Shown here: positions 63,395-64,000 of the stretch, in pieces
How positions within the stretch are numbered: the first letter of the stretch is position 1
Layout: every line of letters starts with the position of its first letter
NCBI GenBank assembly: GCA_038874595.1
Contig: JAVZCB010000005.1
Coordinates: 33,005-97,004, forward strand
Source of the DNA: Candidatus Micrarchaeia archaeon
GTDB lineage: Archaea > Micrarchaeota > Micrarchaeia > CAILAH01
Length of the DNA stretch: 64,000 nucleotides
Direction: 5' to 3'
The notes under the pieces: generated by a model
The model's input: the letters and a program-made list of their open reading frames with translations, nothing else
Told to the model about the DNA's origin: nothing
The model's database searches: none
Program-made: the position numbers and the translations under genes

Positions 63395-63583
63395 ATGATA
63401 AAGAGATGCGAAAGGTGCGGGGAGGAAACACATTTCCTTGAGAAATGCAATTTCTGCAGTAAGTATGTGTGCAGGAAATGCGTACACGCCGCAAGGAATA
63501 TTGAGAAGGTAAAACGCGTGGTAATCTGCAAAGGATGTTTCGGAGACGCAAGAAAAATGAAAGAATACGAGAATATGAGGTGA
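63395..63583 (+). CDS. Small Cys-rich zinc-finger protein (four CxxC)
   Basis: CERC, CNFC, CRKC and CKGC in 62 aa; GAGGT ribosome-binding-like motif upstream. Confidence 0.78.
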   Translation: MIKRCERCGEETHFLEKCNFCSKYVCRKCVHAARNIEKVKRVVICKGCFGDARKMKEYENMR

Positions 63584-63596
63584 TTCATGATAGTGT

Positions 63597-63794
63597 GGCC
63601 CTACAACTTCAGTTGCTGGGGTGGTTGGGCCAAGTAAACTGAAGGGTGTGCTGGGGCCCGCATCCTCGGGTTGCCGGGGTGGTAGGGCCAAGCAAACCGA
63701 AAGGTTTGCGGGCACCTTTTGCAGACGCAAAAGTGTGGGCGCCGGCTCCCTACATCTCTGGTTGCCGGGGTGGTAGGGGGCGCCGGCTCCCTAC
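63597..63794 (+). ncRNA. Putative structured RNA with repeated hairpins, abutting tRNA-Phe
   Basis: GC-rich; three copies of a hairpin with core GTTGC(C/T)GGGGTGGT(A/T)GGG; GAAA tetraloop hairpin. G-U pairs indicate the + strand. Confidence 0.6.
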
Positions 63795-63896
63795 GCCGCA
63801 GTAGCTCAGCCTGGGAGAGCACTCGGCTGAAGCCGTCATAAGTGTTATCCGATGGCAGAAACCGAGGGATCGTTGGTTCAAATCCGACCTGCGGCA
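63795..63896 (+). tRNA. tRNA-Phe(GAA) with 28-nt intron (63833-63860)
   Basis: Acceptor GCCGCAG/CTGCGGC-A; D-arm GCTC/GAGC; anticodon arm CTCGG-CT-GAA-G[intron]A-CCGAG; T-loop TTCAAAT. Confidence 0.95.
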
Positions 63897-64000
63897 TACT
63901 TCTTTTCTTTTTAGAAAAAAGAAAAGACCTATACTAGAAAAGAAAAACCTGATATGAAAAAGATATGAAATACTTCTTTTCTTTTTAGAAAAAAGAAAAG
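63896..64000. repeat. Duplicated palindromic T/A-rich element (period 74 nt), terminator-like
   Basis: ATACTTCTTTTCTTTTTAGAAAAAAGAAAAG at 63896 and 63970, with an 11-bp stem CTTTTCTTTTT/AAAAAGAAAAG. The second copy reaches the window edge. Confidence 0.85.

What the first reader, a model, noticed from the sequence alone, without database searches (positions are those of the whole stretch)
63597..63794. Unrecognised multi-hairpin structured RNA joined to the 5' end of tRNA-Phe
Seen: about 200 nt of GC-rich non-coding sequence with three copies of one hairpin (63597-63631, 63655-63689, 63746-63780). The core GTTGC(C/T)GGGGTGGT(A/T)GGG recurs at 63612, 63670 and 63761, with pairing-preserving changes next to the loop (CAG/CTG, CGG/CCG, TGG/CCG). 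Copies 1 and 2 are each followed by a related second hairpin, perfect in copy 2 (GCAAACC-GAAA-GGTTTGC). A further hairpin TTTTGC-AGAC-GCAAAA follows. Divergence that preserves pairing suggests selection on RNA structure. It matches no RNA class I recognise (not SRP, 5S, C/D or RNase P). Inference: a new non-coding RNA released by RNase P cleavage of the pre-tRNA, or a tandem protein- or ligand-binding leader.
Basis: partly seen in the sequence, partly recalled or inferred. Interest (0 to 1): 0.8.

Follow-up and report, generated by a model that had tools for sequence, protein, structure and literature searches.

The report
Mobile hairpin repeat abutting archaeal tRNAs
The hairpins in front of this tRNA gene of a tiny hot-spring archaeon are not a one-off RNA gene but three stacked copies of a small repeat that also sits, in either orientation, exactly at the cut points of many other tRNA genes and makes up some whole tRNA introns, so it offers a handle on how archaeal tRNA introns arise.

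Summary
The hairpins are real (fold z -5.4, no Rfam match) but are three stacked units of a dispersed repeat of a Micrarchaeia family, not a single-copy ncRNA. This genome has 7 arrays; 6 end at a tRNA boundary: sense at +1 (Phe, Cys, two Ser), antisense at intron 5' splice sites (Gln, His). Of 60 terminal copies in 12 genomes, 43 abut tRNA boundaries; 6 of the other 17 carry 13-68 bp target duplications; some sit in frame in genes. The orthologous Phe spacer runs from 1 to 212 bp. It keeps to the repeat's own strand even where that is antisense to the tRNA. Best reading: a non-autonomous mobile repeat with a fixed 3' end, tolerated because RNase P or splicing removes it. No mobilising enzyme was found; DNA versus RNA intermediate is open. 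This scan noted similar tRNA-flanking triplex cassettes in other DPANN genomes; I found no paper.

The parts
63395..63583 (+). 62-aa Cys-rich (Zn-finger-like) gene; in relative G005 its stop codon lies 1 bp from tRNA-Phe, so the tRNA is probably co-transcribed with it
63597..63604 (+). 5'-truncated remnant: 3' arm of a further upstream palindrome; ragged 5' end of the array
   Evidence: sequence
63605..63661 (+). Unit 1, decayed: spacer hairpin, third-strand tract, A-to-T change at the head of the purine arm, imperfect inserted hairpin
   Evidence: 18.1 bits
63662..63753 (+). Unit 2, expanded: third strand 63676-63680, 3-nt loop, purine arm from 63684, two hairpins inserted in the palindrome's loop, pyrimidine arm 63746-63753
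   Evidence: 98% identical over 128 columns to the tRNA-Cys leader copy
63692..63709 (+). Inserted hairpin module with GAAA loop; the same module occurs in family copies and alone in more distant archaea
63717..63732 (+). Inserted T-run/A-run hairpin module, loop variable among copies
63754..63794 (+). Unit 3, the compact 41-bp repeat unit
   Evidence: 58 bits with model R1
63767..63771 (+). Predicted third strand GGGGT, mirror of purine arm AGGGG (63775-63779) across the 3-nt loop 63772-63774
   Evidence: covariation only; fold not shown experimentally
63773..63794 (+). Terminal 9-bp palindrome with GCCG loop; last base abuts tRNA +1; the fixed 3' end of the element
63795..63896 (+). tRNA-Phe(GAA) with a 28-nt intron at 37/38 (63833-63860)

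Best explanation
63597-63794 is an array of a small non-autonomous mobile repeat of Micrarchaeia. The unit (41-50 bp) is a short spacer hairpin, a G/T tract, a 3-nt loop and a GC-rich palindrome; extra hairpins can sit in the palindrome's loop. SHOWN: multi-copy; presence, copy number and orientation vary; 3' end fixed and 5' end ragged; joined with strict polarity to tRNA processing boundaries; variable-length target duplications at non-tRNA sites; fold conserved on its own strand. INFERRED: the single-stranded element folds its 3' end into hairpin plus purine-motif (class I) triplex, more likely as ssDNA than RNA; this end is what a host or visiting enzyme joins to, or copies from, a free end at the target; synthesis stops at a variable point and rejoins the chromosome, leaving a duplication; founders at tRNA boundaries are then copied among tRNA genes through shared flanks and expand in tandem by slippage. 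At Phe it is a passenger in the co-transcribed precursor that RNase P removes at +1, as splicing removes the intron copies.
For: 7 arrays in the genome, 6 at tRNA boundaries, against roughly 0.2% per copy expected from 96 kb of non-ORF DNA (my estimate; copies not independent). Model R1 hits 7 of 8 family genomes with 1-14 matches and strong multi-copy hits in three genomes of other families; 125 of 141 class genomes have none. 60 terminal copies: 16 sense at +1, 21 antisense at T-loop 59/60, 5 antisense in anticodon-arm introns, 1 antisense just 3' of a tRNA, 17 elsewhere (L133 reassigned by eye). Offset to the boundary 0 in 15 of 15 leaders and 18 of 21 T-loops, +1 in 4 of 5 anticodon introns. 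Duplications of 13-68 bp starting at the 3' junction in 6 of 17 other sites; none of 272 cross-pair controls reaches that score. Phe spacer 1-212 bp among relatives. Paralogous copies within a genome 96-100% identical (Phe/Cys/Ser leaders; five T-loop introns of G007) while orthologous Phe copies differ widely. In-frame copies in a phosphomannomutase-like gene (G007, G003; absent in this genome) and TatD (G001). Foot of the palindrome covaries across at least eight versions. Linker follows T(k)-NNN-A(k) in 37 of 41 parsed variants, shuffled mean 12, max 24. Purine-motif triplexes are stated not to form in RNA (PMC4666352).
Against: No mobilising gene found: no Y1 transposase in 10 element-bearing genomes, no GIY-YIG in the family, RT in only 1 of 8 family relatives and none here; the assemblies are 61-94% complete. 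None of 41 tRNA-boundary copies has a target duplication, so their route of arrival is not shown and many are probably secondary copies of few founders. The predicted triplex has only 4-6 triads, below the 6-nt minimum of PMC4666352, and was not tested physically. Kin and paralogues are not independent, so the counts overstate. A DNA-only route does not by itself explain why the joints fall on sites defined by RNA processing.
Confidence: 0.7

Rival explanations
1. SINE-like retroposon: leader copies are masters; RNase P gives the RNA its exact 3' end; a visiting reverse transcriptase (such as a DGR RT) copies it, primed by tRNA 5' halves or by template jumping from tRNA 5' ends, which gives antisense copies at 5' splice sites and sense copies at +1.
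For: One rule explains both orientations; fixed 3' end, ragged 5' end and variable duplications are the textbook marks of target-primed reverse transcription (own knowledge). A same-genus genome has a DGR whose RT ends about 0.7 kb from a copy; 17 of 141 class genomes have an RT. Another repeat here is joined to a duplicate of the tRNA-Ser 3' exon that starts at T60.
Against: The mirror tract suits a DNA triplex; no adenine-only substitution pattern among close copies (AG 12, CT 9, AC 8, AT 5, GT 3, CG 3); RT absent from all other element-rich genomes searched and RT-bearing loci lack the element apart from G001; genomes G099 and G107 show copies but no leader master among the hits read.
Confidence: 0.2
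2. Functional structured RNA or processing signal: the hairpins set or gate RNase P cleavage, or act as a protein-binding 3' tail, and were recruited to several tRNA precursors.
For: Strong fold on the transcribed strand here; GNRA/UUCG-type loops in several copies; exact abutment to +1; the G-rich tract can pair with the acceptor 3' strand at the Cys and Ser loci. GC-rich palindromes flank tRNA genes in Neurospora mitochondria (Yin et al. 1981, title cited in PMC4478555).
Against: Absent at the orthologous site in several relatives; antisense in 27 tRNA-linked copies; in frame in genes; most tRNAs of this genome lack it.
Confidence: 0.08
3. No true mobility: a locally unstable palindrome that inserts anywhere by replication slippage and recombination; the pattern is left by selection alone.
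For: Triplex repeats block polymerase in vitro and go with local instability (PMC4666352); tandem expansion is common here; compact genome leaves few safe sites.
Against: Selection does not predict base-exact joints or one orientation per site class; anywhere in an intron loop or leader should be tolerated; copies reach unlinked loci and other families.
Confidence: 0.1

Closest known systems
Intrastrand-triplex repeats BoxC / PIT / TMECO (Holder et al. 2015, PMC4666352)
   Same: Short dispersed GC-rich repeat: hairpin plus mirror third strand with T opposite A; purine motif; variable presence among relatives.
   Different: Class I order (third strand, purine, pyrimidine) instead of class II; only 4-6 triads; no match to the TMECO consensus; archaeal; joined to tRNA processing sites; target duplications.
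REP / BIME / REPIN with RAYT (TnpA-REP)
   Same: Small strand-specific palindromes, mosaic and tandem arrays; the window's copy has a GTAG foot (resemblance from my own knowledge).
   Different: GTAG is only one of at least eight covarying feet; no Y1 transposase found; tRNA-boundary targeting and long duplications are not REP traits.
tRNA intron transposition in Thermoproteales (Fujishima et al. 2010, as summarised in PMC4090602)
   Same: Near-identical introns in different tRNA genes of one genome (five T-loop introns of G007, 99-100%).
   Different: Here the shared unit also lies outside introns (leaders, gene ends, coding frames) and is antisense inside them. A 2026 preprint found no such arrival route in Asgard archaea (10.64898/2026.10.13.758758).
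Mobile GC clusters of fungal mitochondria (GC42, PMC4478555; Neurospora tRNA-flanking palindromes)
   Same: About 42-nt GC-rich palindromes, structure under constraint, sporadic presence, merger and shuffling of units, near tRNA genes, mobiliser unknown.
   Different: Organelle versus archaeal chromosome; no sequence relation tested; triplex signature and splice-site polarity not reported in the passages read.
SINEs / non-LTR retroposons
   Same: Fixed 3' end, truncated 5' end, variable-length target duplications.
   Different: No partner RT-endonuclease found, no A-rich tail, prokaryotic host.

Membership tests
Any Rfam 15 family | Covariance-model match | tested here: not met
   Only tRNA (and a neighbouring SRP RNA) at E<=1 in the window and in 25 loci with copies
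Dedicated leader ncRNA / cis-regulatory leader | Kept at the orthologous site, on the transcribed strand | tested here: not met
   Spacer 1-212 bp, element missing in G003-G006 and L083; antisense in 27 copies
Dedicated leader ncRNA / cis-regulatory leader | Accumulates as a discrete RNA | not testable with these tools
   No RNA run holds the stretch
Class I intrastrand triplex motif (PMC4666352) | Reverse-Hoogsteen tract 5', then purine, then pyrimidine tract; G.G-C and T.A-T or A.A-T triads | tested here: met
   37 of 41 linkers keep T opposite A and G opposite G across a 3-nt loop
Class I intrastrand triplex motif (PMC4666352) | Stem of at least 6 triads | tested here: not met
   5 in the window's unit, 4-6 in the family
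Class I intrastrand triplex motif (PMC4666352) | Triplex forms physically | not testable with these tools
   Needs CD, melting or footprinting
BoxC / TMECO | Class II order and TMECO consensus | tested here: not met
   Order reversed; consensus does not fit the unit (by inspection)
GTAG-type REP / REPIN | Conserved GTAG-type foot 5' of the palindrome | tested here: not met
   Foot varies and covaries with the 3' end
GTAG-type REP / REPIN | RAYT / Y1 transposase in the lineage | tested here: inconclusive
   PF01797 not found in 10 element-bearing draft genomes, 61-94% complete
MITE (IS-derived) | Terminal inverted repeats and fixed short target duplication | tested here: not met
   Polar element, ragged 5' end, duplications of 13-68 bp or none
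SINE-like retroposon | Fixed 3' end, 5' truncation, variable target duplication | tested here: met
   (duplications at 6 of 17 non-tRNA sites, 0 of 41 tRNA sites)
SINE-like retroposon | Partner reverse transcriptase; RNA intermediate | tested here: inconclusive
   RT only in G001 (a DGR); no adenine-biased changes
SINE-like retroposon | Derived from a tRNA or other small RNA | tested here: inconclusive
   Best match to this genome's tRNA 5' ends 11 of 13, reached by 9% of shuffles

The most novel reading that the evidence does not exclude
A prokaryotic SINE-like element: RNase P cuts it from tRNA precursors to give its exact 3' end, and a reverse transcriptase working in trans joins it to RNA ends made by RNase P and the tRNA splicing endonuclease, creating new tRNA leaders and whole new tRNA introns.
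Probability: 0.2. Interest if true: 0.9.

Novelty: new variant of a known kind. Interest (0 to 1): 0.55.

Why it matters
[quoted passage not shown] Here a defined 41-50 bp element makes up nearly all of a 230-nt tRNA-His T-loop intron, recurs at base-exact tRNA boundaries with fixed polarity, and leaves target duplications elsewhere, which turns the question into specific tests (DNA or RNA intermediate, which enzyme, which end). It also adds N-terminal peptides to proteins in frame. It is a caution too: covarying hairpins before a tRNA can be a mobile repeat and not an RNA gene.

Tried and rejected
Rfam: nothing but tRNA. Known self-cleaving ribozymes considered from memory (HDV-like, twister, pistol, hammerhead): no Rfam hit, RNase P RNA present, not pursued. 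Assembly artefact: rejected. Mobiliser searches: Y1, GIY-YIG and RT not found here; the DUF559 hit is a domain of a 1592-aa DUF4011/helicase/MTES_1575 protein that is also in the element-free relative G004, so it is no specific candidate. DGR-type adenine mutagenesis: not supported. Origin from tRNA 5' ends: a first test was contaminated because my tRNA finder took the element itself for tRNA starts; the clean test gave p=0.09. Triplex parsing errors were corrected (5 rows left unparsed). No RNA holder listed, no RNA contig laid: no evidence either way. No match of the inserted-hairpin pattern in viral contigs. Sigma-70 and terminator scans blank and not suited to archaea. The 568-aa minus-strand ORF that overlaps the array is a mechanical extension of glnA (426-427 aa in relatives). 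Eight literature searches found no description of the element.

Full report
Observation. The 205 nt fold far better than shuffles (z -5.39). Rfam finds only tRNA-Phe(GAA), 63795-63896, with a 28-nt intron. The genome is a 918-kb, 93.5% complete archaeal assembly whose family relatives are named Micrarchaeota/Micrarchaeia; the stretch is held by hot-spring metagenomes of two studies. A second assembly of the species has the same 211-bp spacer.

It is a repeat. The core recurs at six more loci in this genome: directly before tRNA-Cys, Ser(GGA) and Ser(TGA) on the tRNA strand; on the opposite strand inside the 37/38 intron of tRNA-Gln and the 59/60 intron of tRNA-His; and once away from any tRNA. 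The Phe and Cys leader copies are 98% identical over 128 columns. At the orthologous Phe site the distance from the stop codon of the 62-aa gene to the tRNA is 1, 27, 36, 53, 60, 64, 76, 132, 211 or 212 bp in relatives; the 1, 27, 36, 53 and 64 bp versions hold no element, the others one or more units. With a 1-bp spacer in G005 the tRNA must be co-transcribed with that gene, so what RNase P (present) releases here is probably the mRNA with the array as its tail (inference).

Anatomy. The unit is a short spacer hairpin, a G/T tract, a 3-nt loop and a palindrome. In the window: a truncated remnant (63597-63604), a decayed unit (63605-63661), an expanded unit with two hairpins inserted in the palindrome's loop (63662-63753) and a compact unit (63754-63794) whose palindrome (63773-63794) ends on the base before tRNA +1.

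Distribution and joints. A covariance model from 13 units hits 7 of 8 family genomes and gives strong multi-copy hits in three genomes of other families; 125 of 141 class genomes have no hit. Of 60 terminal copies read in 12 genomes, 16 are sense at tRNA +1, 21 antisense at the 5' splice site of T-loop introns, 5 antisense at anticodon-arm introns, 1 antisense just 3' of a tRNA and 17 elsewhere. The 3' end falls on the boundary in 15 of 15 leaders scored and 18 of 21 T-loops, and one base off in 4 of 5 anticodon introns. Two further copies are sense inside introns, one ending at the 3' exon and one 7 nt short of it. These counts are not independent: five T-loop introns of G007 are 99-100% identical. 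The 230-nt tRNA-His intron of this genome is almost wholly element. At 6 of 17 non-tRNA sites the 13-68 bp after the 3' end are duplicated just before the element; no control pair scores that high; none of 41 tRNA-boundary copies shows this. 5' ends are ragged. Copies lie in frame at the start of a phosphomannomutase-like gene in two relatives and in TatD in a third.

Which fold is selected. In 45 distinct terminal hairpins there are 70 G.T-type pairs and one C.A (the search favours G.T, but the reverse strand also folds worse), so the fold belongs to the element's own strand even where that strand is not the tRNA transcript. Following a lead from earlier notes of this scan, I tested a third strand: the linker between the two G runs is T(k)-NNN-A(k) with k = 0, 1 or 2 in 37 of 41 parsed variants (shuffled mean 12, maximum 24), and distal A faces A in three copies. 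That is the class I purine-motif intrastrand triplex of PMC4666352, which states that purine-motif helices cannot form in RNA. The opposite strand would need T where it has A. The stem is short (4-6 triads) and untested.

Mechanism. Shown: a polar, multi-copy, variably present element with a fixed 3' end. Inferred: a single-stranded intermediate whose folded 3' end is joined to, or copied from, a free end at the target, with secondary copying among tRNA genes and tandem slippage; RNase P and the splicing endonuclease make such insertions harmless. The triplex signature favours ssDNA; the polarity rule (sense to RNA 5' ends, antisense to RNA 3' ends) and the duplications favour reverse transcription. 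No Y1 transposase, GIY-YIG nuclease or RT was found in this genome; a same-genus genome has a DGR with a copy about 0.7 kb from the RT gene, but close copies show no adenine-only changes. I give 0.7 to the mobile-repeat reading as stated, 0.2 to the RT-driven version.

Comparison and novelty. It works like BoxC/PIT, REP/BIME and mitochondrial GC clusters but fails the defining tests of each (see membership). It overlaps with intron transposition in Thermoproteales, but the unit also lies outside introns. I found no paper describing it. Earlier, unchecked notes of this scan describe similar triplex-type cassettes at tRNA ends in other DPANN genomes and pieces of this family in this genome; I did not test whether those cassettes are homologous. 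Verdict: new variant of a known kind; interest 0.55.

Noticed in passing
window 63896-64000: AT-rich T-run/A-run hairpin repeated with a 74-bp period after tRNA-Phe; the contig ends inside it. The sister assembly shows three copies and continues into the sequence at the end of contig C2, so C5 and C2 probably join here.
   Followed up: partly
L079 and L078 (G000 C4:79040-79330; C3 downstream of tRNA-Ser): Another repeat ends exactly on a duplicate of the tRNA-Ser 3' exon that starts at T60, the first base after the T-loop intron.
   Followed up: partly
L159:1255-3557: Diversity-generating retroelement in a same-genus genome: 426-aa RT, AAC-rich template repeat, 268-aa target with variable repeat; an element copy lies in frame in the neighbouring TatD gene.
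   Followed up: partly
L082:290-350 and L057: C/D-box-like small RNA shared by G000 and G007, not hit by Rfam; an element copy lies shortly downstream in both genomes.
   Followed up: no
L012 and L017, upstream of tRNA-Phe: Unrelated inserts before tRNA-Phe are preceded by a partial duplicate of the tRNA's first 8-15 bases, like a target duplication starting near +1.
   Followed up: no
G000 genome: At least 17 of about 35 tRNA genes found carry a 59/60 T-loop intron (26-236 nt); the tRNA at C3:108239 has an unusually long D-arm region, probably a further intron.
   Followed up: no
L007 and L083, tRNA-Phe: In two same-genus relatives tRNA-Phe has an extra insertion in the 5' strand of the anticodon stem besides the 37/38 intron.
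   Followed up: no
L059, L072, L073, L076: The inserted GAAA-type hairpin module occurs alone in intergenic regions of more distant organisms.
   Followed up: no
L188:4231-9009: 1592-aa DUF4011 / superfamily-1 helicase / MTES_1575 nuclease protein, present in most genomes of the family.
   Followed up: partly
window 63395-63583: 62-aa Cys-rich protein with no Pfam hit and only 4 close homologues found; always between glnA (divergent) and tRNA-Phe in the family.
   Followed up: partly
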